Under the pieces are notes generated by a model. That model did not search any database and had not been told where the DNA came from. It saw nothing but the letters and a program-made list of their open reading frames with translations. This document shows, piece after piece, positions 3,425 through 29,691 of a DNA stretch of 32,000 bases. Source of the DNA: Massilicoli timonensis (lineage in GTDB: Bacteria; Bacillota_I; Bacilli_A; Erysipelotrichales; Erysipelotrichaceae); assembly GCF_900199515.1 (NCBI RefSeq), contig NZ_LT963434.1, positions 1,502,180-1,534,179 of the forward strand, given 5' to 3'. The translations under genes were made by a program, and so were the position numbers. How positions within the stretch are numbered: position 1 is the stretch's first letter; the number at the start of each line of letters is the position of its first letter.

Positions 3425-3447
3425 AGACAGAAAGGAGGCGATCGAAG

Positions 3448-4818: not shown

Positions 4819-4841
4819 AGACAGAAAGGAGGCGATCGAAG

Positions 4842-6212: not shown

Positions 6213-6235
6213 AGACAGAAAGGAGGCGATCGAAG

Positions 6236-13966: not shown

Positions 13967-14088
13967 GACAGACTCCTTTCTTACAGGAGCGATCGTTTGT
14001 ATCTCCTCCTGCAACAATATTTTATTTTCTTAATAAGCGCCTCGGGGACAGGGGACATACAAACACCTTCTTTCTATCAAACGAAACT

Positions 14089-14118
14089 ATTATAACACAG
14101 GGAAGAACCGTGCGACAA
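14089..14118 (-). promoter_or_regulatory. candidate corA promoter with extended -10
   Basis: Minus strand reads TTGTCG, 18-nt spacer, TGtTATAAT. It implies a ~115-nt leader before the corA ATG. Confidence 0.5.
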
Positions 14119-14218
14119 AGTTTATTTTCGCATTTTTTATCAAAGTGCAGCAGTGATTTCCAACTGGAATTATCAGAACGCACATGATAGAATAAATAAT
14201 AAGAAAGCAGGTGGACGC

Positions 14219-14737
14219 ATGGGGCGGTTTTTCGGCCATTTGAAGACAATTACGCTGCATAAGATCCGGGTGACGAAACTGTGTTTTCGCTGTGGCCTGT
14301 ATAAGCAGGGAATCTTGCACGATCTATCAAAATATACGCCGGTGGAGTTTCTGTCCGGTGTAAAGTATTACCAAGGTGATCGCAGTCCGATCAATCGGGA
14401 AAAAGAGGTCATTGGCTATTCGCTTGGCTGGCTGCACCATAAAGGCAGAAATAAGCATCACTGGGAATATTGGCTGGATAACGGAGATCCGATCAAAGCG
14501 ATCGAAATGCCGGTCAATTATGTCATTGAAATGTTTTGTGATCGGGTCGCGGCTTGTCAGACTTATCAGAAAGAAGCCTATCGGGATGATTCGGCGCTGC
14601 GTTACTATCTGAATGGGAAAAGTCGCTGTCTGATGCATGAAAATACCCATGCGCTGTTAGAAGAGCTGCTTACTTATTTAAGTGAACACGGCTTAGATGA
14701 AACCATTGCTTATATCCGTAAACACTATCGTAAATAA
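14219..14737 (+). CDS. conserved hypothetical protein, DUF5662-like (family assignment from memory)
   Basis: 172 aa from MGRFFGHLKT. Motifs GILHDLSKY, YYQGDRSPI and GWLHHKGRNKHHWEYW. TGaTAGAAT extended -10 at 14185-14193. Confidence 0.55.
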   Translation: MGRFFGHLKTITLHKIRVTKLCFRCGLYKQGILHDLSKYTPVEFLSGVKYYQGDRSPINREKEVIGYSLGWLHHKGRNKHHWEYWLDNGDPIKAIEMPVNYVIEMFCDRVAACQTYQKEAYRDDSALRYYLNGKSRCLMHENTHALLEELLTYLSEHGLDETIAYIRKHYRK

Positions 14738-14973
14738 AAAATACATCTTTTGCTTAGGTTTCTTTACAAAGGCATAATCATAAATCACAACAAAAACCGA
14801 GCCAACCTACACTAAAACGTCGCTTTTTTCGAGGAAAAGGCGGCGTTTTTTCATGGCCCGGTTTTGGAAAGGAGTGGTGCTGACTTTATACTAAAACGAA
14901 AGGGGGAATTTTTTTAGCTGGCCGGGCCGGGAGGTCTGGCCTTTTTTCATCTCACGAAAAAGGAGGTTAGCCA

Positions 14974-16515
14974 ATGGCAGATGAAAAAGTAAACGTGAGC
15001 CCGGAGGAAAAGAAAGCCCCGGAAGCTCCGGCCCCGTCCGGGCCGGGCGATCCGCCTGCGCCGAAGCACACCGAGGGGCCCGCTGTCCCTGGTGGAGATC
15101 AGACGGCCCCCGCTCATGTGGAGCCCGCCATGCCGGAAAAAACGGAGGGGCCCATCAAGCCAGAGCAGTCTGTTATCCCTGGTATGGGTGAGGACACTCC
15201 CGCACCGTCCAGCAAGGTGATCAACCTCTCGGACATCCAGGCCGCTGATAAGGGCGGTAAGGAGGCTTCTACTCCCACTCTGGAAAAGAAAGCGCCGGAG
15301 GCGGATAAGCCGCCGAAGCGCCGGGGCCGTCCGCCGAAGGAGCAGGCCGGGCCGACTGTGGAGAAAAAGTCGAAAGCGGCGGAGCCCCGCACAGGCCGCC
15401 CGTCTAAGGTTGACAAGGCGGCCCGTGAGGAGGCTCCGCCCTCTGTTCGGGACAAAGTGTCCAGAGGTAAGAAAGCCGACAAGGGCAAGGAAACGGGTTC
15501 CGGCGGTGCGCCTGCGTCTAAATCCGCTAAGACGGTAAAGCCGGGCAAGGCCGCTCCCGTCAAGGAGGCGGCAGTCCCGCCGCCGGAGATTAAACTGCCG
15601 CCCACGCCGGAGGTGCCGCCCCGCCCGGTGGAAGAGGGAAAAATCGTCTATTTGAAGATGTCGGAGCTCCATCCGTTCCACACGTTCCGGGAACACCCCT
15701 ACAAGGTGCAGGACGATAAGGCGATGGACGATCTGGTGGGGACGATCAAGGAACACGGCATTATGACCCCCGCCACCGTCCGCCCGGAAAAGGACGGCAA
15801 GGGCTATGAGATTATCGCGGGCCACCGCCGCCATCATGGTGGTGCGCGGGCCGGGCTGGAGGAAATGCCCTGTATCGTCCGGGAGATGACTGACCTTGAA
15901 GCTGTCCGGGAAATGCGGAACAGCAACAAACAGCGCGGCGATCCGCTCCCCAGCGAGCTGGCAAAGCTCCTGGATTTGGAGGTGGAGGCCATCAAACGCC
16001 AGGGGGCCCGCCCGAAAACGGAGAAAGAGGCCGAGGCCCTTGGTAAGCTCTCGGTGGAGATCGTTGGCAAGGATCACGACATGAACTATAAAAAGGTCAT
16101 GCGGTATATCCGGCTCAACTCCTTGGTGCCGGAGCTTCTGGACAAGGTGGACGCAAAGCAGATGGGCTTTATGCCTGCGGTGGAGATCTCGTATATCAGG
16201 CCGGAAAACCAGCGGCTGATTGCCGTTTCCATTGACGGGGAGCAGTCCTCCCCCTCGGTGGCCCAGGCGAAGCGGCTCCACGAGCTGGACAAGGAGGGCA
16301 AGCTCAACGGCGATGTGATTGACGGTATTTTGAGCGAAGAAAAAAAGGAGGATCGCGGTGTGATTATTTCGACTGCTGAACTGTCTAAGTATTTCGGCAA
16401 GGAGGTCACTCCTGCCAAAATGAAGGAGCAGATCATGGCTCTGCTGGACGAGTGGAAAGAGAAACAGCCGCCCGAACTGGCGAAGCCGGACAAGAAAAAG
16501 GACTTGGAGAAGTAA
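14974..16515 (+). CDS. ParB/Srx-like nuclease-domain protein with a long Pro/Lys/Ala-rich N-terminal extension
   Basis: 513 aa. AGGAGG is 7 nt upstream. ParB N-terminal domain motifs LHPFHTFREHPYKV and YEIIAGHRRHHG. The first ~210 aa are low complexity. Confidence 0.85.
   Translation: MADEKVNVSPEEKKAPEAPAPSGPGDPPAPKHTEGPAVPGGDQTAPAHVEPAMPEKTEGPIKPEQSVIPGMGEDTPAPSSKVINLSDIQAADKGGKEASTPTLEKKAPEADKPPKRRGRPPKEQAGPTVEKKSKAAEPRTGRPSKVDKAAREEAPPSVRDKVSRGKKADKGKETGSGGAPASKSAKTVKPGKAAPVKEAAVPPPEIKLPPTPEVPPRPVEEGKIVYLKMSELHPFHTFREHPYKVQDDKAMDDLVGTIKEHGIMTPATVRPEKDGKGYEIIAGHRRHHGGARAGLEEMPCIVREMTDLEAVREMRNSNKQRGDPLPSELAKLLDLEVEAIKRQGARPKTEKEAEALGKLSVEIVGKDHDMNYKKVMRYIRLNSLVPELLDKVDAKQMGFMPAVEISYIRPENQRLIAVSIDGEQSSPSVAQAKRLHELDKEGKLNGDVIDGILSEEKKEDRGVIISTAELSKYFGKEVTPAKMKEQIMALLDEWKEKQPPELAKPDKKKDLEK
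15447..15467. repeat. palindrome GGACA-aag-TGTCCAGAGG (copy inside the parB-like gene)
   Basis: Shares GTCCAGAGGTAAG (13 nt) with the 16540-16552 copy. The central triplet is the complement of that in the other copies. Confidence 0.6.
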
Positions 16516-16525
16516 CCCGGCCCCG

Positions 16526-16548
16526 CTTCTGGACACTTTGTCCAGAGG
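16526..16548. repeat. 23-bp element CTTCTGGACACTTTGTCCAGAGG (10-bp stem, CTT loop), copy 1
   Basis: Identical 23-mer at 17873-17895. It starts 11 nt after the parB-like stop and has no U-tract. Confidence 0.8.
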
Positions 16549-16581
16549 TAAGCGCCCCGCGCTTGGGATGGGCTCTGTGGT

Positions 16582-16724
16582 GATATATCCCCCGTCGCCG
16601 CCTATATTCCTGCACAGCCGGGAGTGGGCCGTCAAGGGTGCAACGCACCGCCGCTCGCGGCGGCTTGCCCTTGACGGTCTGCCCCGGCTGTGCTACTTCC
16701 AGCGGCGCGGCGGGGGTATATATC
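16582..16724. promoter_or_regulatory. ~145-nt nested imperfect palindrome (candidate oriT, ssDNA promoter or structured RNA)
   Basis: Concentric stems: 16648-16653/16658-16663 (6 bp), 16629-16638/16668-16677 (10 bp), 16612-16622/16683-16693 (11 bp) and ~16582-16602/~16701-16724 (bulged). An internal bubble sets TATATTCC opposite TACTTCC. Confidence 0.6.
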
Positions 16725-16810
16725 CTCCAGAGCCGCCCCCTTTCCCTGGATAGGGAAAGGGCGGGGGGATAGGGTCGAACTACCTATTATAAATATCGGA
16801 GGTGTTGAAG

Positions 16811-17152
16811 ATGAAACGATCCCTTGCTTATATTACCGCCGCATGGCGCGGCGATCCTGCGGTGGACATGGAACAGGCGGCGCATTTCTGCCGTGTGGTC
16901 TACGATGCGGGCTATTCCCCCATCTGCCCCATGCTCTATCTGCCGCTGTTCCTCAATGACGCGGTGCCGGAGGAGCACAAGAACGGCATCGACATGGGCC
17001 GTGACCTGCTCCGGCGTTCCCGTGTGCTGGTGGTGTGCGGCCATACCATCACCGAGTCCATGAAAAATGATATTGCCGTGGCCCAGCGGCTGGGGATCAC
17101 CGCTACCACCCTTGAGGGCATCCTGACCGTCAAAGGCCAGGGCCGCCGCTGA
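16811..17152 (+). CDS. DUF4406-like (nucleoside 2-deoxyribosyltransferase-like fold) protein; family assignment from memory
   Basis: 113 aa from MKRSLAYITAAWRGD. GGAGG is 8 nt upstream of the ATG at 16811. The stop lies 1 nt before the ardA ATG. Confidence 0.55.
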   Translation: MKRSLAYITAAWRGDPAVDMEQAAHFCRVVYDAGYSPICPMLYLPLFLNDAVPEEHKNGIDMGRDLLRRSRVLVVCGHTITESMKNDIAVAQRLGITATTLEGILTVKGQGRR

Positions 17153-17153
17153 T

Positions 17154-17867
17154 ATGGCGTCCCTGTTTGAAGCCTACATCACCAACCTGGGAAAATACAA
17201 CGAGGGCGAGCTGGTCGGTGAAACCTTGAAATTCCCCACTACCACGGAGGAGGTGCAGGGACTTCTGAAACGCATCGGCGTGGACGGGGTGCGGTATGAG
17301 GAATTTTTCATCACCAGCTTTGACGGTGATGTGCTGGGGCTCTATGACTATCTCACGGAATATGAAAACCTGGACGAGCTCAATCATCTGGCCTGCCTAC
17401 TCTCCGAGCTGGAGCAAAGCGACTTGGAGAAGTTTGAAGCGGTCATTGACAGCGGCGAACATACTTCCAGCGTGGCTGACCTCATCAATCTGGCGCAAAA
17501 CTTGGATTGCTACGAGTTTTATCCCGGTGTGGAGGACGATGAAACCCTGGGCCGCATTTATGTGGAGGATATGGAGGCCATTGACATTCCCGATCACCTG
17601 CTCCCTTACTTCGATTATGAAGCATACGGGCGGGACGTGCGGATCAACGAGGACGGCCACTTTGCCCCCGGCGGCTATGTGCTGAACAACGGCGGCAAAT
17701 TCATCGAGCACTACCACGGGATCGAGGACATTCCCGCCGAGCATAAGGTTTTCGCGTTCCCGCAGCTCTCGGTGCGGGAGCAGATGGCGGCCTACAAAGA
17801 AATTATTGACGGCTCCTCTCTGGAGGGCTATCGGAAGATTGCCAAAAAGGAGCACGAGGAGCGATAG
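17154..17867 (+). CDS. ardA: ArdA-family antirestriction protein
   Basis: 237 aa, highly acidic. The N-terminus AYITNLGKYNEGELVGETLKFP is typical of ArdA. Common in leading regions of Firmicutes conjugative elements. Confidence 0.85.
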   Translation: MASLFEAYITNLGKYNEGELVGETLKFPTTTEEVQGLLKRIGVDGVRYEEFFITSFDGDVLGLYDYLTEYENLDELNHLACLLSELEQSDLEKFEAVIDSGEHTSSVADLINLAQNLDCYEFYPGVEDDETLGRIYVEDMEAIDIPDHLLPYFDYEAYGRDVRINEDGHFAPGGYVLNNGGKFIEHYHGIEDIPAEHKVFAFPQLSVREQMAAYKEIIDGSSLEGYRKIAKKEHEER

Positions 17868-17872
17868 CGGCA

Positions 17873-17904
17873 CTTCTGGACACTTTGTCCAGAGGCGCTT
17901 TTTT
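17873..17904 (+). terminator. 23-bp element copy 2 plus T-run (terminator-like)
   Basis: CTTCTGGACA-ctt-TGTCCAGAGG followed by cgc and T6. It starts 6 nt after the ardA stop. Confidence 0.5.
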
Positions 17905-17993
17905 CACGGAAAGGAGGGATACGGCTGATTGATGAGGACGTTTCCAGACGTACCATAGCAGTTTCCATTAAGGCGACAAAGCTCACGGGCCGG

Positions 17994-18401
17994 GTGCTGG
18001 CCCAGGCGTGTCTGGCGGTGGGCCGGAAAATCAAGAAAGCGCACCGGGCCCGCCAGACACCCCACGGCAAACAGACGGTGCGCCAGCTCATGGGCCACGG
18101 GGCCGCCACGAACAGCATCGAGGTGGAGTCCCCAAAGGACTTTGACCGGGTGGCTCGGAAATGGAATGTGGACTATGCCTTTTATAAAACCGGGCCGGAC
18201 AAGTACCTGCTGTTTTTCAAAAGTGGGCAGGCCGATGCCATCACCGCTTGTTTTTCGGAATATTCCCGGCGCGTGATGAAGCGTTCCAAGTCCCGGCGCG
18301 TCCCGATCCGGGAACAGCTCAAACGGGCCGCCGCTGAACTGGCCCGCCAGCCGTCCCACAAGAAAGAACGTGCAAGGGAGGCGGTGCATGAGGACAGATA
18401 G
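17994..18401 (+). CDS. PcfB/DUF3801-like conjugation accessory protein (5' end probably extends to ~17925)
   Basis: 135 aa from GTG 17994. The same frame is open from 17868 and encodes family-like ...TIAVSIKATKLTGRVLAQ upstream. AAGGAGGG sits at 17911-17918 with no canonical start after it. Confidence 0.6.
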   Translation: MLAQACLAVGRKIKKAHRARQTPHGKQTVRQLMGHGAATNSIEVESPKDFDRVARKWNVDYAFYKTGPDKYLLFFKSGQADAITACFSEYSRRVMKRSKSRRVPIREQLKRAAAELARQPSHKKERAREAVHEDR

Positions 18402-19377
18402 CGTCAAGAAATATGTAATACCCAACATCCCGTACCTGTTTATCCTGTGGGCCTGCCTAAAGCTGGGGACGGCCTACCGCCTGGCTCCCGGAGCGGACTT
18501 TGCTCACAAGCTGATGGGCCTGGGCCAGAGCATCGGCCCGGCCTTTGCCGACTTTGCGCCGGGGCTCCATCCCCTTGACTGGCTCATCGGCATTGTGGGC
18601 GCGGTAGGCTTCCGCCTGCTGATCTACTTCAAAAGCAAGAACGCAAAGAAATTCAGACGGGATGAAGAATACGGGTCGGCCCGCTGGGGGACAGAAAAGG
18701 ACATCAAGCCCTTTATCGATCCAAAGTTTGAGAACAACGTCATTTTGACAAAGACGGAGTTTCTCACCATGAACACCCGGCCCAAAAATCCGGCCAACGC
18801 CCGCAATCTCAACGCCTGCATCATCGGCTCGTCCGGTTCGGGCAAAACCCGCTTCTGGCTCACTCCGCAGATTTTGCAGGCCAGCGCGGATAAAAACGGC
18901 GGATGCAGCTATGTGTGCGTCGATCCGAAAGGCGGGGTGCTCTCTCAGGTGGGAGCTTTCCTGCAACGCCGGGGATATAAGGTCAAAGTGTTCAACAGCA
19001 TAGATTTTTCAAAATCCATGCACTACAATCCGCTGTCCTACATCCACAACGAAGCGGACATCCTTAAATTTGTGGACACTCTCATAGCAAATACAAAGGG
19101 CGAGGGCAAGGAGGGCGATCCGTTTTGGACAAAGGCAGAAACGCTCCTTTATTGTGCGTTGATTGCCTATATTATCTTTGAAGCTCCTGCCGAGGATCGG
19201 AACATCAATACCCTGGTGGACATGATTTCCGGCATGGACGTGAAAGAGGATGACGAGTCCTATATGAACGCGGTGGACTATATGTTCAAGGGCCTGGAAA
19301 AGCGCAAGCCGGATTGCTTTGCCGTGAAGCAGTACAAAAAATATAAGCTGGCCAGCGGAGATGTATGCTCTAAGTGA
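18388..19377 (+). pseudogene. VirD4/TraG-type type IV coupling protein, 5' portion only (interrupted by insertion)
   Basis: N-terminal TM helices and Walker A IIGSSGSGKTRF. The family-like sequence ends at ...KQYKKYKLA, then a 7-codon foreign tail (SGDVCSK) and a stop. About 329 aa are present, against the ~600 aa I recall for this family. No 3' half occurs in any frame of the window. Confidence 0.8.
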
Positions 19378-19428
19378 CTTCTTAATCATGGTTTTTGTCA
19401 TGGTTAGTGAAGCAGTCACTTAGAGCAT
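19365..19428. repeat. 14-bp perfect inverted repeat ATGCTCTAAGTGAC / GTCACTTAGAGCAT with a 36-bp spacer
   Basis: Arms at 19365-19378 and 19415-19428. The spacer contains TCATGG twice. It is followed by TTTCATTTC and then the recombinase RBS. Confidence 0.85.
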
Positions 19429-19450
19429 TTTCATTTCAGGAGGTACAGCC

Positions 19451-21331
19451 ATGAGAAACGAGAAAATCACCCCTCTGTATGAGCGTTTGAGCCGCGACGA
19501 TGAGTTACAGGGCGAGAGCAACTCCATAAGCCATCAAAAGCAGATGTTAGAGGAGTTTGCCCGCCGGAATGGGCTGCCGAACCCCACACACTTCACCGAT
19601 GACGGCGTATCGGGAACCCGCTTTGACCGTCCCGGCTTTCTGGCGATGATGGAGGAAGTCGAGGCCGGACGGGTGGAGGCCATTGTTATCAAAGACATGA
19701 GCCGTCTGGGGCGTGACTATCTGAAAGTCGGTCAGGTCATGGAGATTTTGCGGCAGCGCGGTGTCCGGCTGATCGCCATCAACGACGGTGTGGACAGTCT
19801 GAAAGGCGACGATGATTTTACCCCGTTCCGCAATATCATGAACGAGTTTTACGCCCGTGACACCAGCCGGAAAATCCGCTCCGTGTTCAAGTCCAAAGGC
19901 ATGAGCGGCAAGCACCTGACCGGCACCGTTATTTACGGCTATCTGTGGGACGAAAAGCGGGAACACTGGCTTGTGGACGAAGAAGCCGCCGAAGTGGTAC
20001 GCCGCATCTTTTCCCTGACGATGGAGGGCTATGGCCCCTATCAAATCTCCAAGCTGCTGTCCGAGGCAAAGGTTGAAATCCCCGCTGTCCATCTGGCACG
20101 CTTTCACGAGGGCGTAAACAGGTCAAAGCCGGTCAAAGACCCCTACGGCTGGGGATCGTCCACCATTGTGAACATCCTGAAAAAGCGGGAATACCTGGGC
20201 CACACCATCAATTTCAAGACCCGCAAACACTTCAAGGACAAGAAAAGCCATTATGTTGACGAAAGCGAGTGGACGATTTTCGAGAATACCCATGAGGCCA
20301 TCATCGACCAGGAAACCTTTGACAATGTGCAGCGCATCCGGGCGAATGTCCGGCGCTACCCGGACGGCTGGGGCGAGGCCCATCCTCTGACCGGCCTGAT
20401 GTACTGCGCCGACTGCGGCGACAAGATGTATGTCCATCGCGTCAATAACGGCAAGCGTGACCCACAGTTTACTTGCAGTCAGTATAGCAAATACCCTATC
20501 GGCTCCCTTTGCCCCACACAGCACCGCATCCGGGCCGAGGCCGTCCTGACCCTGATAACCGATATGCTCCGGGCCATCGCGGAGTATTCCAAGAATGACA
20601 GGGCTGAGTTTATCCGCACTGTCCAGGAAACACAGGCCGCCCAGCAGACCGCCGACATATCCAAGAAACGGAAACGGCTGGCCGCCGCCCAAAAGCGGGC
20701 CGGGGAACTGGAAAAGCTGATTTGCAAAATCTATGAGGACAACGCCCTGGGCAAGCTGCCGGATGCCCGGTATGAAGCCCTGGACGCACAGTATGCCAAA
20801 GAGCAGGACGCTCTCCATGCGGAAATCGCGGAACTGGAAAAGGCCGTTACCGGCTATGAGCAGAGCCGGAAATCTGCGGAGAAGTTTATTGCCCTGATTG
20901 ACAAGTACGAGAATTTTGACACGCTGACAAATACCATGCTCAACGAGTTTGTGGAGAAAATCCTTGTCCATGAACGCGCCCGCAAAGGCAGCCAGGACAC
21001 CACACAGGAGGTTGAAATCTACTTCAACTTTGTGGGCCGCTATATCCCTCCTGCCTTGCAGCCGGTTCCCCTGACCCCGGAGGAACAGGAAGAACTGCGG
21101 AAGAAGGAGGAACGCAAGGACAGGCTTCACCAGAACTACTTGCGCCGCAAGGCAAACGGCAAGCAGAAGGAATGGGAAGAACGCTACAACGCCAGGCGCA
21201 AGGCCCAGGTGGAGGCAGCAAAGGCCGCGATCCGGGCCGAGGACATGGAAAAGGGCGTTTTTATCCCCGTCAGCCAGTTACCCAGGCAGGAGCCGCGCAA
21301 GGCCACCATATCGGCCAGCGCCGCAGTTTAA
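19451..21331 (+). CDS. large serine recombinase (TnpX-like; resolvase domain, recombinase domain, zinc ribbon, DUF4368-like C-terminus)
   Basis: 626 aa. Catalytic-serine motif YERLSRDD, then VIKDMSRLGRDY, then Cys cluster CADCGDKMY...FTCSQY...C, then LNEFVEKILVHE...EIYFNFVG. AGGAGG is upstream. Confidence 0.9.
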   Translation: MRNEKITPLYERLSRDDELQGESNSISHQKQMLEEFARRNGLPNPTHFTDDGVSGTRFDRPGFLAMMEEVEAGRVEAIVIKDMSRLGRDYLKVGQVMEILRQRGVRLIAINDGVDSLKGDDDFTPFRNIMNEFYARDTSRKIRSVFKSKGMSGKHLTGTVIYGYLWDEKREHWLVDEEAAEVVRRIFSLTMEGYGPYQISKLLSEAKVEIPAVHLARFHEGVNRSKPVKDPYGWGSSTIVNILKKREYLGHTINFKTRKHFKDKKSHYVDESEWTIFENTHEAIIDQETFDNVQRIRANVRRYPDGWGEAHPLTGLMYCADCGDKMYVHRVNNGKRDPQFTCSQYSKYPIGSLCPTQHRIRAEAVLTLITDMLRAIAEYSKNDRAEFIRTVQETQAAQQTADISKKRKRLAAAQKRAGELEKLICKIYEDNALGKLPDARYEALDAQYAKEQDALHAEIAELEKAVTGYEQSRKSAEKFIALIDKYENFDTLTNTMLNEFVEKILVHERARKGSQDTTQEVEIYFNFVGRYIPPALQPVPLTPEEQEELRKKEERKDRLHQNYLRRKANGKQKEWEERYNARRKAQVEAAKAAIRAEDMEKGVFIPVSQLPRQEPRKATISASAAV

Positions 21332-21357
21332 CCGTCACAGTGCAAAGGAGGACGAAC

Positions 21358-21711
21358 ATGAACAAATTGACTTACACCCGCTGCGGGGATTACTACATCC
21401 CCGACCTGAAACTTTCCGAGCAGCCGGAGGCCCCCATCGGCAAGTATGGCCGTATGCGGCAACGCTACCTGAAGGAACACCGGCCCGGCCTTTACAGCAG
21501 CTTGGCTTTGAGCGAAAAGCTGTACCCGCACCTGTTGGAGATTGACCGGGCGGCGCGAGAGCGGATAGACGCCATGCTGCCCCGCATGATGGAGGCGGCA
21601 GGCGTCACCGAGGAACTGAAAGCCCATGACCCTATGCGCTGGGTGGGGCTGATGAACACGCTGAAAGCGCAGGTGGAGGAAATTATTTTTCAAGAACTTA
21701 TATTTGTTTGA
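21358..21711 (+). CDS. tnpV: TnpV-like transposon protein
   Basis: 117 aa from MNKLTYTRCGDYYIPDL. IGKYGRMRQRYLKEHRP and HLLEIDR resemble TnpV of Tn4451/Tn4453 (from memory). AAAGGAGGA is upstream of the ATG at 21358. Confidence 0.7.
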   Translation: MNKLTYTRCGDYYIPDLKLSEQPEAPIGKYGRMRQRYLKEHRPGLYSSLALSEKLYPHLLEIDRAARERIDAMLPRMMEAAGVTEELKAHDPMRWVGLMNTLKAQVEEIIFQELIFV

Positions 21712-21714
21712 TTT

Positions 21715-21750
21715 AAGAATGAACGTCAGAAAAATCTGGCGTTCATTCTT
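21715..21750. terminator. bidirectional terminator hairpin between tnpV and the convergent araC-family gene
   Basis: AAGAATGAACGTCAG-aaaaat-CTGGCGTTCATTCTT (15 bp including one G-U pair). The right arm overlaps the last codons of the AraC gene. Confidence 0.7.
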
Positions 21751-22714
21751 TGTTTATCAATTTTCTATACTCTCGTGGTAATAATCCAGTAACACGCTGG
21801 AATTGTTTTGCAAAACTTTCAGACCTATCATATCCAACCGCTTGTGCGATCTCTGCGATGCTTAATTCTGTTCCCATAAGGAGGTGCTGGGCCTGTCCAA
21901 TCCTTTTCTGCAAAATATAATCATAGAGCGTACAGCCGAAACATTCCTTAAAGGCAGCTTTTAACTTCGTCTGCCCCATAAAAGAAATGCGACACAACCT
22001 CTCAATCGGAACAGAAAAGGCATAATGGTTATCCAGATAAGCCGCAACTGCGGAAAGGTTCTCCTGATCCTGCTCTGTCAGATGCAGCTTCTTTTTCTTC
22101 TCCTGGTTGCTTTTAGCCCGCTCCATAATTAAAGAAACCGCTTCTAATATTTTGCCTTCATAAAACATCTTTGCCGTAAGACCTGTTCCCCGGTATCCTT
22201 CGATTTGCTTTAGCAGAGCAATCAATTCAGGGAAATCCGTTCCGATCTGCATTTTACGAAATGCTTCGCTGGGATCAATGTATTCTCCTGGAAATTTCTG
22301 CTGCAAATACCGTTGATAAAACTCCGGCATGATCGTAAAACTGATACTCTGCAAAGGAATATTCTTATGATAAATCGCCTGATACACCCTGCCTGCCTGC
22401 CCGATTTGTGCTTGTAAACTGTTAGGAGAAAGCTGGCGGTAAGGATGAAATTCTTCACCTGACACGGAGGTGTAATAAGTAACAGACAAAAATTCCGGTT
22501 CTGGACACTCTAACATAATGTCATCAAGAAAAAGAAAATCTCTGATGGTGATTTCAAACATATTTTCATAAAAATATACCCAAAAATGCCCTTGCCCCTT
22601 ATCTGCCTGTAAAGTGTAACAGGTAAATTCATTATAAGGCTGCCTGTGTTCGTTATCTAAAAAGAATCCTCCATCAGAAAGCATGGAATGATACATTTCT
22701 TTTATATGTTTCAT
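21743..22714 (-). CDS. AraC/XylS-family transcriptional regulator
   Basis: 323 aa from the ATG at 22714, with AGGTGA 6 nt upstream. The C-terminal double HTH runs ...IERLCRISFMGQTKLKAAFKE...SIAEIAQAVGYDRSESFAKQFQRVTGLLPREYRK. The N-terminal ~200 aa is a putative ligand domain. Confidence 0.85.
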   Translation of the reverse strand: MKHIKEMYHSMLSDGGFFLDNEHRQPYNEFTCYTLQADKGQGHFWVYFYENMFEITIRDFLFLDDIMLECPEPEFLSVTYYTSVSGEEFHPYRQLSPNSLQAQIGQAGRVYQAIYHKNIPLQSISFTIMPEFYQRYLQQKFPGEYIDPSEAFRKMQIGTDFPELIALLKQIEGYRGTGLTAKMFYEGKILEAVSLIMERAKSNQEKKKKLHLTEQDQENLSAVAAYLDNHYAFSVPIERLCRISFMGQTKLKAAFKECFGCTLYDYILQKRIGQAQHLLMGTELSIAEIAQAVGYDRSESFAKQFQRVTGLLPREYRKLINKE

Positions 22715-22729
22715 TGTTGTCACCTATAA

Positions 22730-22766
22730 ATACGCCGTTTGGACGAACTTATACGCCGATACGACG
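22730..22766. promoter_or_regulatory. direct repeats ATACGCCG (22730, 22751) and ATACGACG (22759); candidate AraC-type sites
   Basis: Two perfect 8-mers are spaced 21 bp apart start to start, about two helical turns. They lie in the divergent araC/ecfT intergenic region. Confidence 0.3.
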
Positions 22767-22821
22767 CTCCTTTCCAAAATCCATTGTGAAAGCAAAAGTC
22801 TCGTACTATACTTAGAAACGG

Positions 22822-22843
22822 TGATTAGTTAGAGCTAACCACT
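22822..22843. promoter_or_regulatory. DtxR/IdeR-box-like palindrome tgatta-GTTAG-ag-CTAAC-cact
   Basis: The core GTTAG..CTAAC matches the core of the remembered DtxR consensus TTAGGTTAGCCTAACCTAA, but with a 2-nt centre instead of 1 nt. It lies between the candidate promoter TTGTGA-17-TATACT (22784-22812) and the ecfT RBS. Confidence 0.3.
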
Positions 22844-22894
22844 TGATATTGTAGCACATACCTGTTGTTTTCACAAGGTAAAGGAGGTGAAAAT

Positions 22895-23617
22895 ATGCGG
22901 ATGAGTTTTAAGGCATCAATGCCGGACCCCCGCATTTTAATTATACAGATTGTCGTGGTGGCGGTATTGGCATCGGTATTTCGGAATCTGCTCGCATTAT
23001 TTCTTTTAGTGCTGATTGTAGATTTCCTGCTGTTACTTCAATGCGGGTGGGCGGTTTTCTGGAAAAACCTTCTGTCCTATGCAGCTATGCTGCTGATACT
23101 GTTTGCGCTGCAAGAGATATACATTCCGATTGTTTCGGATTTGTTTCCGCTTTTCCTTTTGTTGATGGCGAGGCTATATCCGGCGTATTTGGCAGTGAGG
23201 GTTCTGATTGAAAAAGCGCCAATGGATGAACTGCTTTTTTCATTGGAAATCTGGCGTTTTCCAAAATTAGTGTTGATCCCGTTGGCAGTTATTTATCGTT
23301 ACATACCAACGATATTGAAAGAGATCGGATACATTCGGGAAAGCCTTAAAATGCGGAATCTCCATTCCTCTATGTGGGATAAGGTATGCCATCCAATGCA
23401 AAATGTAGAAAACTTTTTTGTCCCACTTTTATATCGCAGTGAAAAAATTTCGGAAGAATTGTCTGCCGCTTCAATCTGCAAAGGGCTTAGCACAAAAAGA
23501 AAACGAACGTGCTGCACGAAAGTGAAACTAGGGGTAACAGATCTTATCTACTTGCTTTGTGTTGCGCTCCTTGCGGCAGGTTTAGCATTTATCAACTATC
23601 ATGTGATTTTACTTTAG
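22895..23617 (+). CDS. ecfT: ECF transporter transmembrane (T) component, CbiQ/EcfT family
   Basis: 240 aa from the ATG at 22895, with AAGGAGG upstream. About five TM helices and a cytoplasmic coupling-helix-like segment EIGYIRESLKMRNL. Confidence 0.65.
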   Translation: MRMSFKASMPDPRILIIQIVVVAVLASVFRNLLALFLLVLIVDFLLLLQCGWAVFWKNLLSYAAMLLILFALQEIYIPIVSDLFPLFLLLMARLYPAYLAVRVLIEKAPMDELLFSLEIWRFPKLVLIPLAVIYRYIPTILKEIGYIRESLKMRNLHSSMWDKVCHPMQNVENFFVPLLYRSEKISEELSAASICKGLSTKRKRTCCTKVKLGVTDLIYLLCVALLAAGLAFINYHVILL

Positions 23618-23636
23618 ATGGGAAGGAGGCATGAGA

Positions 23637-25118
23637 ATGAACCAGCCTGTCATTGAATTTTCAAACTTTAGTTTTACCTATCATAATGCTGACTCAGAAA
23701 GTCTGACAGGGATTGATTTAATCATTCGTAAGGGTGAATTTATCCTTTTGACAGGACATAGCGGCTGTGGCAAGACCACATTGACCCGCTGCATAAATGG
23801 GCTTATCCCGGATTTTTTCGAGGGGGACCTTTCAGGGAAATGCCGCGTTTGCGGTATGGATATTGCAGAACATGAAACAGGTGAGTTTTCACCGTTGGTC
23901 GGTTCGGTATTTCAAGACCCACGTTCTCAGTTTTTTACACTTCATGTCAAAACGGAAATTCCGTTTCCAAGCGAAAACCTGGGAACACCTATGGATAAAA
24001 TGCAGGAGCAATATGAAAAAGCGGTGGACGTTTTACAAATTCAGGGCTTACTTGGAAAGAGCATTTTCGACCTTTCCAGCGGCGAAAAGCAGAAGGTAGC
24101 CATTGCGTCAATTTATATGGTGGGAGTCGGAATTTATGTCTTGGACGAACCATCGGCCAATCTGGATTCGGAGGGTACAGAGCAGCTTCGTCAAGTATTA
24201 AAATCCCTCAAAGAGCAGGGTAACACCATCATCATTTCGGAGCATAAGCTCTACTACCTCAACGGGCTTACGGATCGTGTTCTGATTATGAAGGACGGAA
24301 AAATTGATAAAGAGATGGAAGGCAGGGTTTTCGACCGGCAGACAGCAGAATGGTTTACAAGGCATGGCCTGCGAAAATCCGATCTCGCACTTATTACACC
24401 AAAATCCTACCATCCTGTTAAGGGAGATGTCTCCATTCAAATAAAGAATTTGTCCTTTGGTTATCCGGGAAAACCGCTGTTATGGCACGATGTTACCTTT
24501 TCCGCTCATGGTGGAGAGATCATCGGTATCATTGGAAAGAACGGAGCCGGAAAAAGCACATTGATCCGAACACTTATGGGGCTTGAAAAGCCAAAGACCG
24601 GGAAAATTTCTATCAACGGAAGTTACTCCGGCAAGCAGCAGCGGCGAAAAAAATCTTTCTATGTCATGCAGGATGTAGATTATCAGCTATTTGCTCCGAA
24701 TGTATTGGAGGAAATGCTGATGGGTACGAAAAAGACAGAGATAGAAAAAGAACAGGCCATTTGTAAGCTGGAGAATTTGGGATTGGGAAAATTCCTGAAA
24801 AGGCACCCCACAGCTTTATCCGGTGGACAAAAGCAGCGGCTTTCTATTGCATTGGCAGAAATGAACCGTTTACCGCTTCTCTACCTTGATGAACCGACCA
24901 GCGGACTGGACGCAGAGAATATGAAGATTGTCCAGACTGAAATAAAAAAGCTGGCTGAAGGTGGCGCGTGTGTGTTTGTCATTACCCACGATTATGAATT
25001 TGCCGCAGAGCTTTTTTCTTCCCTTCTTCTTTTACAGGAGGATGGTACGATACAGTATCTTTCCCCTGATAAGTACAAGCCGGAAAACCTGGCTCAATAT
25101 TTTCAAATTTCATTCTAA
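23637..25118 (+). CDS. ECF-type duplicated ATPase (fused A-A' components)
   Basis: Two NBDs. The first has GHSGCGKTT, LSSGEKQKVAIA and IYVLDEPSANLD. The second has GKNGAGKST, LSGGQKQRLSIA and LLYLDEPTSGLD. ATG 23637 has better SD spacing than ATG 23631. Confidence 0.9.
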   Translation: MNQPVIEFSNFSFTYHNADSESLTGIDLIIRKGEFILLTGHSGCGKTTLTRCINGLIPDFFEGDLSGKCRVCGMDIAEHETGEFSPLVGSVFQDPRSQFFTLHVKTEIPFPSENLGTPMDKMQEQYEKAVDVLQIQGLLGKSIFDLSSGEKQKVAIASIYMVGVGIYVLDEPSANLDSEGTEQLRQVLKSLKEQGNTIIISEHKLYYLNGLTDRVLIMKDGKIDKEMEGRVFDRQTAEWFTRHGLRKSDLALITPKSYHPVKGDVSIQIKNLSFGYPGKPLLWHDVTFSAHGGEIIGIIGKNGAGKSTLIRTLMGLEKPKTGKISINGSYSGKQQRRKKSFYVMQDVDYQLFAPNVLEEMLMGTKKTEIEKEQAICKLENLGLGKFLKRHPTALSGGQKQRLSIALAEMNRLPLLYLDEPTSGLDAENMKIVQTEIKKLAEGGACVFVITHDYEFAAELFSSLLLLQEDGTIQYLSPDKYKPENLAQYFQISF

Positions 25119-25135
25119 AAAAGGAGTGTGTCGCT

Positions 25136-25735
25136 ATGAGAAATCAAACAAAAGAAAGTCGTAGATTGAAGGATTTAATCCGAATTGGCGTTTTCAGTGC
25201 GCTGTGGGTTGTGATTGGCTTCCTGGTGGCCTTTACGATTGGATTTTTCCCACCAATTTTATTGGTTCTTCCCTGTGTCCTCGGAATTATCGGTGGGATT
25301 GTCTATGTTGTCATGTTATCAAAGCTGACAATCCCAGGTGGTATTTTAATCAGTTCATTTCTGCTGGGTATCTGCCTGTTTACGATGGCTCCTTATGGCA
25401 TGATGTTCTTCTGCACTGTGGCTGGCGGTGTGATCGGAGAAATCCTTTATAGTGTTTTGGGGAGGCGTACAACCAAAGCAACGATGGTAGGTTCCTCCTT
25501 CGCTTTGGTAGGGCTGGCTCTCGGTGAATACATACCGTTCATCTGGATGCAGGACGCCTATCGTTCCATGCTGGTGAATGATGATTCCGGCCTTCTGGAA
25601 ATTGCTGAATGGTGCATGAATATCGTTTCTGTTCCGGTCATGATTGTGCTGTGCGTGGCAACGGTTACTCTCACCTGTCTGGGTGTGCTTTGGGGAAATA
25701 AAATCGTAAAAAAACGCCTTTCCAATGCGGAATAG
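25136..25735 (+). CDS. MptD/Trep_Strep-family putative ECF substrate-capture (S) component
   Basis: 199 aa, six hydrophobic helices and a basic C-terminal tail (KIVKKRLSNAE). The N-terminus LKDLIRIGVFSALWVVIGF is typical of the family (from memory). AAGGAG is 9 nt upstream. Confidence 0.55.
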   Translation: MRNQTKESRRLKDLIRIGVFSALWVVIGFLVAFTIGFFPPILLVLPCVLGIIGGIVYVVMLSKLTIPGGILISSFLLGICLFTMAPYGMMFFCTVAGGVIGEILYSVLGRRTTKATMVGSSFALVGLALGEYIPFIWMQDAYRSMLVNDDSGLLEIAEWCMNIVSVPVMIVLCVATVTLTCLGVLWGNKIVKKRLSNAE

Positions 25736-25757
25736 GCGGTAAAAGGAGTTGAAAATT

Positions 25758-29308: not shown

Positions 29309-29319
29309 GAGAAATATTT

Positions 29320-29691
29320 ATGAAACTTCATGCGTCCGGGGAGGACTACCTGGAAACCATCCTTGTTCTCCAAAAGAAACTCGGTATGGTACGCTCCGTA
29401 GATGTGGCCCGGCACATGGAGGTGTCAAAACCCAGCGTGTGCCATGCAGTGGCTACCTTGCGGGACGGCGGCTTTCTCACAATGGACGAAGATCACTTTC
29501 TTCATCTGACCGATGTGGGCCGCGAGGTTGCCGAAAAAATCTATGAGCGCCATTGCTTTTTTACCGAGCAGCTTATCGCCGCAGGCGTTGACCCAAAAAC
29601 TGCGGAGGCCGATGCCTGCCGGATTGAACACATCATCAGCGATGAAAGCTTTTCACGGTTGAAAGAGGCAGCCGCACAAGACCAAGAATAA
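29320..29691 (+). CDS. DtxR/MntR-family metal-dependent transcriptional regulator (two-domain form, no SH3-like domain)
   Basis: 123 aa from the ATG at 29320, with AGGAG 8 nt upstream. SGEDYLETILVL, wHTH VDVARHMEVSKPSVCHAVATL, and dimerization/metal region ERHCFFTEQL...ACRIEHIIS. Confidence 0.8.
   Translation: MKLHASGEDYLETILVLQKKLGMVRSVDVARHMEVSKPSVCHAVATLRDGGFLTMDEDHFLHLTDVGREVAEKIYERHCFFTEQLIAAGVDPKTAEADACRIEHIISDESFSRLKEAAAQDQE

What the first reader, a model, noticed from the sequence alone, without database searches (positions are those of the whole stretch)
16580..16768. ~145-nt nested imperfect palindrome upstream of the DUF4406-like/ardA genes, as a candidate oriT or single-strand (Frpo-like) promoter
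Four concentric stems (6, 10, 11 and ~18 bp) are centred on 16655/16656 and can fold either strand into one long hairpin. A separate GC-rich 10-bp hairpin follows at 16737-16762. The paired 10-bp stem contains TTGACG (16671-16676). Exactly 17 nt downstream lies the only sizeable internal mismatch bubble, TATATTCC (16603-16610) opposite TACTTCC (16694-16700). As I recall them, the ssDNA promoters of plasmid leading regions (Frpo/ssi of F and ColIb-P9) place the -35 element and spacer in duplex and the -10 in a bubble. Those promoters drive early expression of ardA, psiB and ssb in the recipient. The hexamer match on the plus strand (TACTTC) is poor, so this is a geometric resemblance only. A conventional promoter candidate GTGATA-17-TATATT (16580-16608) also exists. 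Alternatively, large inverted repeats next to antirestriction genes are typical of oriT.
Basis: partly seen in the sequence, partly recalled or inferred. Interest (0 to 1): 0.65.

Follow-up and report, generated by a model that had tools for sequence, protein, structure and literature searches.

The report
Conserved single-strand hairpin in conjugative elements
The palindrome is real: it is a conserved, portable ~250-nt cassette of gut Clostridia conjugative elements that folds on the gene-sense strand, so it cannot be the single-stranded promoter for ardA that was proposed and is more likely a signal for priming second-strand DNA synthesis.

Summary
Window 16571-16734 folds into one long branched hairpin, followed by a second hairpin at 16735-16766.

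The element is not chance and not MITE-like. It occurs once per locus. It was found in 68 of 81 related ArdA loci and in about 110 metagenome contigs, all from Tn1549-family ICEs/IMEs of gut Clostridia. It stays about 80% identical where the neighbouring ParB protein is only about 45% identical. The stems show compensatory changes.

The key result is strand asymmetry. Stem variation gives G·T wobbles on the + (gene-sense) strand 332 times in the central stem, against 20 A·C. The folding strand is therefore the + strand. An Frpo-type promoter for ardA needs the − strand to fold. The −10 position is also not conserved.

It is not the Tn1549-type oriT, which lies upstream of mobC and is unrelated. 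The nic-like 3' foot covaries as a stem.

The cassette also occurs in other backbones, upstream of IME mobC and beside RepA_N/NikA genes, directly after terminators. It is cleanly absent from 8 relatives.

Best reading (about 0.35): a strand-specific single-strand initiation signal of the sso/ssi type. Rivals are a sense-RNA leader element and an accessory relaxosome site. Which strand is transferred remains unresolved.

The parts
14974..16515 (+). ParB_N-domain gene. It is the first gene of the ICE/IME (left end about 14748). The cassette always follows its stop codon in the ICE context.
   Evidence: Pfam PF02195. L006 aligns with window 14748-19358 at 97%. ParB lies immediately upstream of the cassette in all ICE-type loci.
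16526..16548 (+). H0, a small terminator-type hairpin (CTTCTGGACACTTTGTCCAGAGG). It forms the left border of the cassette. An identical copy lies after ardA at 17874-17895, followed by a T-run.
   Evidence: In relatives it is followed by a T-run (L058, L072, L077) and is also present in the IME/plasmid contexts.
16571..16582 (+). 5' half of the outermost stem. It pairs with 16724-16734.
   Evidence: Fold. Compensatory change from GGCTCTG..GG/CC.CCAGAGCC to GCTCAAAGGA/TCCTTTGAGC in the divergent group.
16583..16601 (+). Outer left arm, containing the near-invariant ATCCCCCGTCGCCG. It pairs with 16702-16723.
   Evidence: Invariant columns. Information content 1.76 bits per position. C-G to T-A compensation in the divergent group.
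16602..16611 (+). Left side of the internal loop. It is hypervariable and mostly A/T-rich.
   Evidence: 0.56 bits per position. Alignments.
16612..16628 (+). Left half of the middle stem. It pairs with 16678-16693 and is the wobble-rich segment.
   Evidence: G·T variants are common at 16613-16618 and 16624-16628, and A·C is almost absent.
16629..16638 (+). Left half of the invariant 10-bp stem (CCGTCAAGGG).
   Evidence: GTCAAGGG is invariant in all 54 sequences and in the divergent group.
16639..16647 (+). Asymmetric 3-bp side hairpin (TGC AAC GCA).
   Evidence: All 3 pairs change on both sides. It lies on the 3' side in IME-type copies because the apex is inverted there.
16648..16663 (+). Apical hairpin CCGCCG-CTCG-CGGCGG.
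   Evidence: helix 5, 100% paired.
16668..16677 (+). Right half of the invariant stem. It contains the -35-like TTGACG (16671-16676).
   Evidence: An uncompensated TTGAC to TTTAC change occurs in 10 sequences.
16678..16693 (+). Right half of the middle stem. It includes the conserved GGCTRTGC (a TRTG motif).
   Evidence: 1.55 bits per position.
16694..16701 (+). Right side of the internal loop (TACTTCCA). It is T-rich and semi-conserved (TWYTTS).
   Evidence: 1.08 bits per position, against 0.56 on the left side. It is not a -10 consensus.
16702..16734 (+). Outer right arm plus foot (GGCGCGGCGGGGGTATATATCCTCCAGAGCC). It pairs with 16571-16601.
16735..16766 (+). H2, the second conserved GC-rich hairpin (CCCCCTTTCCC / GGGAAAGGGCGGGG).
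   Evidence: repeat I4. Helix 6 is 98.6% paired, with 2 pairs changed on both sides.
16767..16780 (+). Conserved G-rich tail (GGATAGGGTYGAAC). It forms the right border of the cassette.
16799..17152 (+). RBS (GGAGG at 16799-16803) and DUF7768 gene (ATG at 16812).
17154..17867 (+). ardA antirestriction gene.
   Evidence: Pfam PF07275, E 5e-44.
17873..17905 (+). Intrinsic-terminator-like site after ardA (a copy of H0 followed by a T-run).

Best explanation
The palindrome is the core of a portable cis-acting cassette of about 250 nt. It comprises a small hairpin H0, a 164-nt branched hairpin, a hairpin H2 and a G-rich tail. It belongs to Tn1549-family ICEs and IMEs and works as a folded single strand, and the strand under selection for folding is the + strand, which is the sense strand of parB, DUF7768 and ardA.

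The most likely function is a single-strand initiation signal (sso/ssi type). When the + strand is single-stranded, as a transferred strand in the recipient or a displaced strand during rolling-circle replication of the excised element, the hairpin forms. It then recruits host RNA polymerase or a primase. For RNA polymerase, the relevant features would be the invariant duplex TTGAC, a 17-18-nt duplex spacer with TRTG, and a pre-melted T-rich loop. The recruited enzyme would make a primer, and complementary-strand synthesis would proceed leftwards, towards the 5' end of the + strand.

The element therefore resembles Frpo in architecture and in Frpo's primer-forming role. It cannot template ardA mRNA.

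Shown: the structure, its conservation and covariation, the strand asymmetry, the cassette-like distribution, and its absence from some relatives. Inferred: that the folded species is DNA and not RNA, that the + strand is the transferred strand, and that priming is the activity.
For: 1. The structure is under selection. 92.8% of pair cells are standard pairs, against 41-51% when partners are slid, and helices 3-6 show changes on both sides. In the divergent group whole stem segments are replaced by compensating sequence.

2. The selection is strand-specific. In 53 sequences there are 214 G·T against 63 A·C. In 136 distinct sequences the central stem has 332 G·T against 20 A·C, and the + strand is the more stable in 127 of 136. 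Earlier it was more stable in 51 of 53. The alifold consensus energy is -44.2 for the + strand against -28.0 for the - strand. A one-arm side hairpin covaries, which excludes a purely double-stranded palindrome.

3. The distribution is cassette-like, as is known for sso elements. The same module, at about 80% identity, sits in unrelated backbones: after parB in ICEs, upstream of an IME-type mobC in L104/L115/L150, beside RepA_N and NikA-like genes in L198, and next to a weak RepL-like hit in L151.

4. It is dispensable. It is cleanly absent from 8 collinear relatives, where the parB terminator abuts the next RBS.

5. In the IME and plasmid contexts a canonical terminator and H0 lie directly upstream, and no promoter-like site lies between them and the hairpin. 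A read-through RNA role is therefore unlikely there.

6. The 8-bp duplex GTCAAGGG/CCCTTGAC is invariant throughout, and the 3'-arm side of the loop is more conserved than the 5'-arm side (1.08 against 0.56 bits). This is as expected if one strand of the loop is read by a protein.

7. There is precedent. ICEBs1 carries a functional, orientation-specific sso predicted to form stem-loops (PMC4595007). [quoted passage not shown]
Against: - No priming or ssDNA data exist for this element.
- The strand nicked at the Tn1549-type oriT could not be determined here. The core is palindromic, and the relative orientation of the module and oriT-like sequences is not constant. It is therefore unproven that the + strand is ever the transferred strand.
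- In the ICE the cassette lies far from the presumed 3' end of the transferred strand, which is not the ideal place for an sso.
- The -10-like position is not a -10, so recruitment of RNA polymerase is conjectural.
- G·T/G·U-rich stems, including a tandem wobble and one pair that is G·T or T·G in every sequence of the main group, are as typical of RNA as of ssDNA. In the ICE context the region must be transcribed in the sense direction for ardA to be expressed.
- No comparison with ssoA/T/U/W reference sequences was possible.
Confidence: 0.35

Rival explanations
1. It is a cis-acting structured RNA in the sense transcript, either the leader or the intercistronic region of parB-DUF7768-ardA. 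The long hairpin would act as an RNase III-type processing or stabilising site, or as a processive antiterminator in the manner of Tn916 canT or pLS20 conAn2. That would let transcription pass the in-line terminators.
For: - The folding strand is the sense strand.
- Wobble-rich stems, a tandem wobble, and one pair that is always G·T or T·G in the main group are typical of RNA.
- The + RNA fold averages -112 kcal/mol against -100 for the antisense.
- The cassette is always co-oriented with its flanking genes.
- No conserved sigma-70-type promoter lies between the cassette and the DUF7768 RBS, so ardA transcripts must cross it or start inside it.
- The operon has in-line terminators: upstream of parB at 14920-14947, H0, and after ardA.
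- An RNA antiterminator is known in Tn916 (PMC11658703).
Against: - In many relatives and in all IME/plasmid contexts, a terminator with a T-run lies immediately upstream of the hairpin with no promoter in between. Little full-length RNA would be made there.
- Long stretches of stem are sequence-invariant, which structure alone does not require.
- There is no Rfam match.
- Portability into unrelated backbones next to mob and rep genes fits a DNA-level element better.
Confidence: 0.22
2. It is an accessory or second origin of transfer, or a relaxosome or coupling-protein loading site, on the + strand. The long inverted repeat lies 5' of a nick region, so that DUF7768/ardA (or mobC in IMEs) enter the recipient first.
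For: - The + strand folds, as expected for the nicked strand.
- The foot ATATATCCTCCAG resembles, from my memory, MOBP nick cores: RP4 YATCCTG|Y and the T-DNA border bottom strand ATATATCCTG|CCA.
- In L104, L115 and L150 the cassette lies 100-170 nt upstream of an IME-type mobC.
- A published survey mentions a putative oriT upstream of mobC in MOBP7 IMEs (PMC12084326). Identity with this cassette could not be checked.
Against: - The mapped oriT region of Tn1549 is a different sequence (TAGCAAGCA-IR-...TTGCTTGTTGGGGAAATCCCCAAACCCC). It recurs upstream of mobC/nikA-like genes in relatives.
- The covariance model finds no copy of the cassette in Tn1549.
- The foot is not an invariant unpaired core. 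It changes to TCCTTTGAGCC with compensating changes in the far-left arm.
- Eight relatives lack the cassette.
- It associates with at least three different mobC/relaxase types.
Confidence: 0.12
3. It is a double-stranded promoter cassette, read by host sigma-A or the element's own sigma factor. It would supply transcription to the gene downstream of a terminator, with the palindrome acting as an operator or as a 5'-UTR hairpin.
For: - The cassette always lies between a terminator and a co-oriented gene start.
- It has an invariant TTGAC, a 17-nt spacer with TRTG, and then TAYTTC.
- The empty-site relatives have no room for a promoter.
Against: - The -10 position is not conserved and lacks the A and T that define a -10.
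- A dsDNA promoter explains none of the 75 conserved pairs, the covariation, the side hairpin or the G·T/A·C asymmetry.
Confidence: 0.08
4. It is, an Frpo-like single-stranded promoter. The transferred strand would be the - strand, its hairpin would mimic a promoter, and it would drive early DUF7768/ardA expression in the recipient.
For: - The geometry fits: -35 in duplex and a loop about 17 nt downstream.
- The position fits: directly upstream of antirestriction genes that sit behind a terminator.
- The - strand also folds well (-69.4 kcal/mol).
- In some lineages the - strand reads a perfect TTGACA.
- Leading-region anti-defence genes of many plasmids use this arrangement (PMC11541004).
Against: - Selection is for pairing on the + strand. 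The same positions would be C·A mismatches on the - strand, while the milder G·T on the - strand (A·C on the + strand) is almost never seen.
- The - strand side of the loop, the would-be non-template -10, is the least conserved part of the element at 0.56 bits.
- There is no sequence similarity to anything in 20,395 E. coli replicons, which include F-like plasmids.
- A Gram-positive precedent (pLS20) concluded that the transferred strand is the non-template strand of the establishment genes (PMC8708921).
Confidence: 0.07
5. It is a selfish repeat (MITE-like) or a neutral palindrome with no function.
For: Presence/absence polymorphism with a clean indel of about 225 nt. The apical 30 nt is inverted between subfamilies.
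Against: - There is one copy per locus and one in the window.
- It is always at the same kind of site and in the same orientation.
- No target duplication is evident.
- It is far more conserved than the flanking proteins and shows compensatory changes.
Confidence: 0.03

Closest known systems
Frpo / ssi single-stranded promoters of F and ColIb-P9 leading regions
   Same: A long imperfect hairpin formed by one DNA strand. It has a -35-like hexamer in duplex and an internal loop about 17 nt away. It sits among establishment genes (ParB-like, ArdA). Frpo also makes primer RNA.
   Different: - The folding strand here is the sense strand of ardA, so it cannot template ardA mRNA.
- No conserved -10 or UP element is present.
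- There is no sequence similarity.
- The host is a Gram-positive ICE/IME.
- The hairpin is branched and is followed by a second conserved hairpin.
Single-strand origins (sso) of rolling-circle plasmids and ICEBs1 sso1 (PMC4595007)
   Same: A non-coding, strand- and orientation-specific folded element of 150-300 nt. It is dispensable and occurs as a cassette in unrelated backbones next to mob or rep genes.
   Different: No activity data exist. Similarity to the ssoA/T/U/W hallmarks (RS_B, CS-6) was not tested, because no reference sequences were held. Whether the cassette lies on the transferred strand is unproven.
oriT of Tn1549 (orf29-orf30 intergenic region; Tsvetkova et al. 2010, paper not held)
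   Same: It belongs to the same element family, contains inverted repeats, and has an ATCC-type motif at its 3' foot.
   Different: The sequence and location are different. The Tn1549-type sequence is present separately in relatives. The foot here is paired and covaries.
EGeRS1 regions upstream of establishment genes of pLS20-family plasmids (PMC8708921)
   Same: A GC-rich, inverted-repeat-rich conserved non-coding region directly upstream of antirestriction/establishment genes in a Gram-positive conjugative element. Its mechanism is unknown, and the ssDNA-promoter idea was judged unlikely on strand grounds.
   Different: EGeRS1 is 400-600 bp, occurs upstream of several operons per plasmid, and no similarity to it was tested. 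This cassette is about 250 nt and single-copy.
canT processive antiterminator RNA of Tn916 (PMC11658703)
   Same: An orientation-specific cis element in an ICE whose operons contain in-line terminators.
   Different: canT is 341-452 nt with a complex fold, lies downstream of a defined promoter, and its activity has been demonstrated. Here a terminator often directly precedes the element.

Membership tests
Frpo/ssi single-stranded promoter | One DNA strand folds into a long stem-loop. | tested here: met
Frpo/ssi single-stranded promoter | A -35 hexamer lies in the duplex part. | tested here: met
   TTGAC(G/A/C/T) sits within an invariant 8-bp stem.
Frpo/ssi single-stranded promoter | A -10 hexamer (TATAAT-like) is conserved at 16-18 nt, together with an UP element. 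| tested here: not met
   The + arm reads TWYTTS and the other arm is hypervariable. The apex upstream of the -35 is GC-rich.
Frpo/ssi single-stranded promoter | The folding (transferred) strand is the template of the downstream genes. | tested here: not met
   G·T/A·C asymmetry and strand energies show that the sense strand is the one selected to fold. Which strand is transferred was not determined.
Frpo/ssi single-stranded promoter | Sequence similarity to known Frpo/ssi. | tested here: not met
   No match in any complete E. coli genome or plasmid.
Frpo/ssi single-stranded promoter | Transcription from ssDNA. | not testable with these tools
   Requires in vitro transcription or zygotic-induction assays.
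Single-strand origin (sso/ssi priming signal) | A non-coding element whose structure is selected on one strand only. | tested here: met
Single-strand origin (sso/ssi priming signal) | Cassette-like occurrence in unrelated replicons; dispensable. | tested here: met
Single-strand origin (sso/ssi priming signal) | The functional strand is the displaced or transferred strand. | tested here: inconclusive
   The oriT core is palindromic, and the relative orientation of module and oriT varies.
Single-strand origin (sso/ssi priming signal) | Hallmarks of known sso types (RS_B, CS-6 and others). | not tested
Single-strand origin (sso/ssi priming signal) | Orientation-specific priming or reduction of ssDNA. 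| not testable with these tools
   Requires a plasmid-stability/ssDNA assay as in PMC4595007.
Tn1549-type (MOBP7) oriT | Homology to the mapped orf29-orf30 oriT region. | tested here: not met
   The Tn1549 oriT sequence was read. The covariance model of the cassette finds nothing in Tn1549. The oriT profile finds nothing at the cassette.
Tn1549-type (MOBP7) oriT | An inverted repeat followed by a conserved, unpaired nick core. | tested here: not met
   The foot covaries with the far-left arm.
Tn1549-type (MOBP7) oriT | Adjacent to mobC/relaxase. | tested here: inconclusive
   True in L104/L115/L150. Not true in the window or in most ICE loci.
MITE-like repeat | Many dispersed copies and target-site duplication. 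| tested here: not met
   Single copy per locus. No duplication at the filled site when compared with the empty site.
Any Rfam family | A match to a curated covariance model. | tested here: not met
   The only match is a chance mir-103 hit elsewhere (E 0.22), with permissive filters.

The most novel reading that the evidence does not exclude
The cassette is a previously undescribed, widespread class of strand-specific folded-DNA signal of gut Clostridia conjugative and mobilizable elements. It would be a Gram-positive counterpart of Frpo that works on the coding strand, recruiting RNA polymerase or primase to start complementary-strand synthesis next to the anti-restriction genes. If so, it would set the timing of establishment-gene expression in Tn1549-family ICEs and the IMEs that parasitise them.
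Probability: 0.3. Interest if true: 0.65.

Novelty: new variant of a known kind. Interest (0 to 1): 0.5.

Why it matters
Tn1549-family ICEs and their IMEs are the dominant conjugative elements of human-gut Oscillospiraceae and Lachnospiraceae, and they carry resistance genes such as vanB and tet.

How their transferred strand is converted to duplex is unknown. It is also unknown how antirestriction genes are expressed when the transferred strand may be the coding strand. The same puzzle was left open for the EGeRS1 regions of pLS20.

This cassette is a concrete candidate for that step. It is sharply delimited and strand-specific, and natural plus and minus variants exist. It can be tested directly with orientation-swap and deletion constructs.

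The result also illustrates a caution: Frpo-like geometry alone is not enough, because strand-of-selection analysis can contradict it.

Tried and rejected
- Rfam scan of 14000-19500 with permissive filters: nothing relevant.
- BLAST of the cassette against PLSDB plasmids, INPHARED phages and all complete E. coli genomes: only one unannotated Subdoligranulum contig matched.
- An apparent similarity of CTTGCCCTTGAC to CCTGCCCTTAAC upstream of mobC in L083 looked like a MOBQ-type nick core. It is not conserved among mobC-upstream regions and was dropped.
- I tried to obtain Tsvetkova et al. 2010 (Tn1549 oriT) by DOI and by PMC id. It is not held. I read the region from pMG2200 instead.
- I tried to deduce the nicked strand from the oriT sequence. 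Both the ATCC-type and the GCTTG-type cores occur on both strands, because the region is itself palindromic. This was inconclusive.
- Relative orientation of the cassette and Tn1549-type oriT-like sequences was opposite in 7 loci but the same in the L006-type mob modules. Those modules are probably separate inserted IMEs. No firm rule emerged.
- Anti-Shine-Dalgarno idea for CCUCC in the foot: rejected. The foot changes to UCCUUU in the divergent group, and the next gene is 170-390 nt away in other contexts.
- DnaA-box and parS readings of the conserved arms: no convincing match by eye, not pursued.
- Supplementary Fig. S7 of PMC12084326 (putative IME oriT) is not held.
- Alignment A3 mixes both strands of the palindrome. 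It was not used for counting; I rebuilt an oriented alignment.
Full report
**Observation**

The repeat finder returns four stems: the 10-bp stem 16629-16638/16668-16677 and the 11-bp stem 16612-16622/16683-16693 (both 100% complementary), the outer arms 16582-16602/16704-16724 (76%), and the GC-rich hairpin 16733-16747/16752-16766.

Folded as ssDNA, 16570-16780 gives one long hairpin plus the second hairpin on either strand. The + strand gives -73.0 kcal/mol (z -7.4) and the - strand -69.4 kcal/mol (z -8.2), and no shuffle folds as well. TTGACG (16671-16676), the internal loop (16602-16611 opposite 16694-16701) and GTGATA-17-TATATT are all present.

**Setting**

Pfam annotation gives the following order:
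- chromosomal genes (FTHFS, RDD/PHP, CorA, DUF5662);
- a ParB_N-domain gene (14974-16515);
- the palindrome;
- a DUF7768 gene (16812-17152);
- ardA (17154-17867);
- a DUF3801/PcfB-like ORF;
- the N-terminal part of a VirD4 coupling protein, cut at about 19358 by an inserted element carrying a large serine recombinase, TnpV and ABC transporters.

An almost identical relative, L006, aligns with window 14748-19358 at 97%. An intact relative, L007, continues with VirB6-like, methyltransferase, VirB4-like and NlpC/P60 genes. That is the Tn1549-family layout described for Faecalibacterium ICEs (PMC12084326). parB is the first gene of the element here and also in a Subdoligranulum contig.

**Conservation**

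A scan of one genome per species with ArdA found 498 relatives, of which the best 80 were kept. BLAST with the palindrome finds exactly one copy in 68 of these loci, always in the same orientation upstream of ardA.

The copy always begins about 45-55 nt after the parB stop. The gene that follows varies. The element stays 80-100% identical where ParB falls to 45% amino-acid identity and ArdA to 70%.

Fifty-four distinct sequences were aligned (A2). Three blocks are invariant: ATCCCCCGTCGCCG, GTCAAGGG/CCCTT(G/T)AC, and ATATCCTCCAGAG followed by the H2 hairpin.

On the structure taken from the window, 92.8% of cells are standard pairs, against 41-51% with slid partners. Ten pairs change on both sides, including all three pairs of a small side hairpin (16639-16647) that exists on one arm only. 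A purely double-stranded palindrome, such as a dimer binding site, does not explain a covarying one-arm branch.

**The decisive result: which strand folds**

Transitions in a stem give G·T on one strand and A·C on the other. Without strand-specific selection the two should be equally frequent.

- On the + strand, the 53 sequences show 214 G·T cells against 63 A·C.
- With 136 distinct sequences from genomes and metagenomes, the central stem (16612-16638/16668-16693) has 332 G·T against 20 A·C. Most of the remaining A·C cells lie beside the loop or in poorly aligned ends.
- One pair (16626/16680) is G·T or T·G in every main-group sequence.
- The + strand is the more stable one in 51 of 53 and in 127 of 136 homologues.
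- The consensus fold scores -44.2 on the + strand against -28.0 on the - strand.

The alternative is that the - strand needs mismatches at these sites. That does not fit. The sites are polymorphic between Watson-Crick and wobble, while the milder G·T on the - strand is almost never seen. The species selected to fold is therefore the + strand, as DNA or as RNA.

**Consequence for the Frpo idea**

RNA polymerase reads a template 3' to 5', so anything templated by + strand ssDNA is antisense to parB and ardA. An Frpo-type promoter for ardA needs the - strand hairpin, with the complement of the left arm as non-template strand.

That side of the loop is the least conserved part of the whole element, at 0.56 bits per position. 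On the + arm the position 17 nt after TTGAC reads TACTTC, TATTTC, TTTTTC, CATTCC, TTTCAG or TTTTGT, which is not a -10. The conventional promoter GTGATA-17-TATATT is not conserved either. Nothing similar exists in 20,395 E. coli replicons.

**The oriT idea**

I read Tn1549 itself from pMG2200. Its orf29(mobC)-orf30 intergenic region is the one reported to carry oriT. That attribution is from memory of Tsvetkova et al. 2010, because the paper is not held. The region reads TAGCAAGCA-IR-GAAAAA-IR-TTTTGCTTGTTGGGGAAATCCCCAAACCCC.

The same architecture lies upstream of mobC in L029, L040 and L083. It also lies upstream of the nikA-like gene of the L006-type mob module. It is unrelated to the palindrome, and a covariance model of the palindrome finds nothing in Tn1549.

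The foot ATATATCCTCCAG does resemble MOBP nick cores as I remember them. In a divergent group of homologues, however, it becomes ATATTCCTTTGAGCC, while the far-left arm changes from GGCTCTG..GG to GCTCAAAGGA. It is therefore a stem, not a conserved unpaired nick site.

In favour of a relaxosome-related role, three metagenome contigs (L104, L115, L150) have the cassette 100-170 nt upstream of an IME-type mobC.

**Portability and dispensability**

A metagenome scan with a left-arm pattern returned 120 contigs. Most repeat the parB context. The cassette also occurs upstream of mobC (above), after RepA_N and NikA-like genes (L198), and next to a weak RepL-like hit (L151).

In these other contexts the borders are the same: the small hairpin H0 on the left and the G-rich tail after H2 on the right. 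The apical 30 nt is inverted relative to the window. A canonical terminator and H0 lie directly upstream, with no promoter-like site before the hairpin.

Conversely, 8 ArdA loci with parB present lack the cassette. There the parB terminator hairpin and T-run abut the RBS of the next gene. L054 (empty) and L058 (filled) differ by a clean block of about 225 nt between the T-run and the RBS. One variant, L070, has lost the inner half.

**Interpretation**

The cassette is conserved, folds on one specific strand, is non-coding, single-copy and dispensable, and moves between unrelated conjugative, mobilizable and replicative backbones. The closest known kind with this behaviour is the single-strand origin/initiation signal. 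ICEBs1 carries a functional, orientation-specific sso predicted to form stem-loops (PMC4595007). [quoted passage not shown]

I therefore rank an sso/ssi-type priming signal on the + strand first, at about 0.35. On that reading the TTGAC duplex and the loop recruit RNA polymerase or a primase, and synthesis runs leftwards.

The main rival, at about 0.22, is a sense-RNA element acting in processing, stabilisation or antitermination, as for Tn916 canT. It is favoured by the wobble-rich stems and by the in-line terminators of the parB-ardA operon. It is weakened by the terminators that directly precede the cassette in many contexts.

An accessory oriT or relaxosome site (0.12), a dsDNA promoter cassette (0.08), the original Frpo-for-ardA reading (0.07) and a selfish repeat (0.03) follow.

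**Main gap**

The transferred strand of these elements is unknown. The oriT core is palindromic, and the orientation of the cassette relative to oriT-like sequences is not constant in the loci I could see. The pLS20 EGeRS1 regions (PMC8708921) are a close conceptual parallel: conserved inverted-repeat regions upstream of establishment genes, for which an ssDNA promoter was rejected on strand grounds and no mechanism is known.

**Novelty**

There is no Rfam family, no annotated homologue in the plasmid or phage collections, and no description that I could find. I class the cassette as a new variant of a known kind. It is ordinary in principle, being a folded single-strand cis signal of a conjugative element. 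It is uncharacterised, abundant in gut Clostridia and experimentally tractable.

Noticed in passing
window 16527-16548 and 17874-17895: An identical 22-nt hairpin (TTCTGGACACTTTGTCCAGAGG) follows both the parB stop and the ardA stop. Only the second copy has a T-run. Related hairpins with T-runs follow parB in relatives and precede the cassette in IME contexts.
   Followed up: partly
window 2039-7606: Four tandem copies (period exactly 1394 nt, 82-86% identical) of an ABC-2-type permease gene lie between two ABC ATPase genes. This is an unusual recent gene amplification.
   Followed up: partly
window about 19358-29700+: An element with a large serine recombinase (DUF4368), TnpV, an AraC regulator and ECF/ABC transporters is inserted inside virD4. 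Many related loci also have virD4 interrupted (split VirD4 hits in L009, L023, L045, L059 and others), which suggests virD4 is a preferred insertion target.
   Followed up: partly
window 14864-14947: Upstream of parB lie a promoter-like site (TTGGAA-17-TATACT), then a strong terminator-like hairpin with a T-run, then the RBS. This promoter-terminator leader at the element's left end recalls the insulator terminator T1 of Tn916.
   Followed up: no
L204 (Tn1549 in pMG2200) 27515-27630 and 18042-18139: The mapped Tn1549 oriT sequence has a second good copy (62 bits) just upstream of the YodL polyvalent-protein gene, and a weak third copy. Inverted copies also lie downstream of IME relaxases (L018, L152). 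The 'oriT' sequence is therefore a repeated module.
   Followed up: partly
L104, L115, L150, L198 (for example L150 5939-6159): In IME/plasmid-type copies the 30 nt between GTCAAGGG and CCCTTGAC is the reverse complement of the window's version. This is a flip of the hairpin apex between the inverted arms.
   Followed up: partly
window 16752-16776: The 3' arm of H2 plus the tail reads GGGAAAGGGCGGGGGGATAGGG. That gives four G-tracts that could form a G-quadruplex on the + strand, in competition with H2. The tract is conserved in the divergent group as GGGAAGGGGCGGAGGGGTTGGG.
   Followed up: no
L070 7879-8012: A natural variant of the cassette lacks the inner half of the hairpin (model positions about 45-124) but keeps the outer arms, foot and H2.
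   Followed up: no
L006 13965-19994 (and L034, L031, L012, L056, L073, L166, L063): A recurrent block comprises a tet-type ribosomal-protection gene, a sigma-70 region 4 protein, HTH_16, a NikA-like protein and a PF03432 relaxase, with a Tn1549-like oriT upstream of the nikA-like gene. It follows virD4 in several loci and follows ardA directly in L063. It is probably a separate IME nested in these elements.
   Followed up: partly
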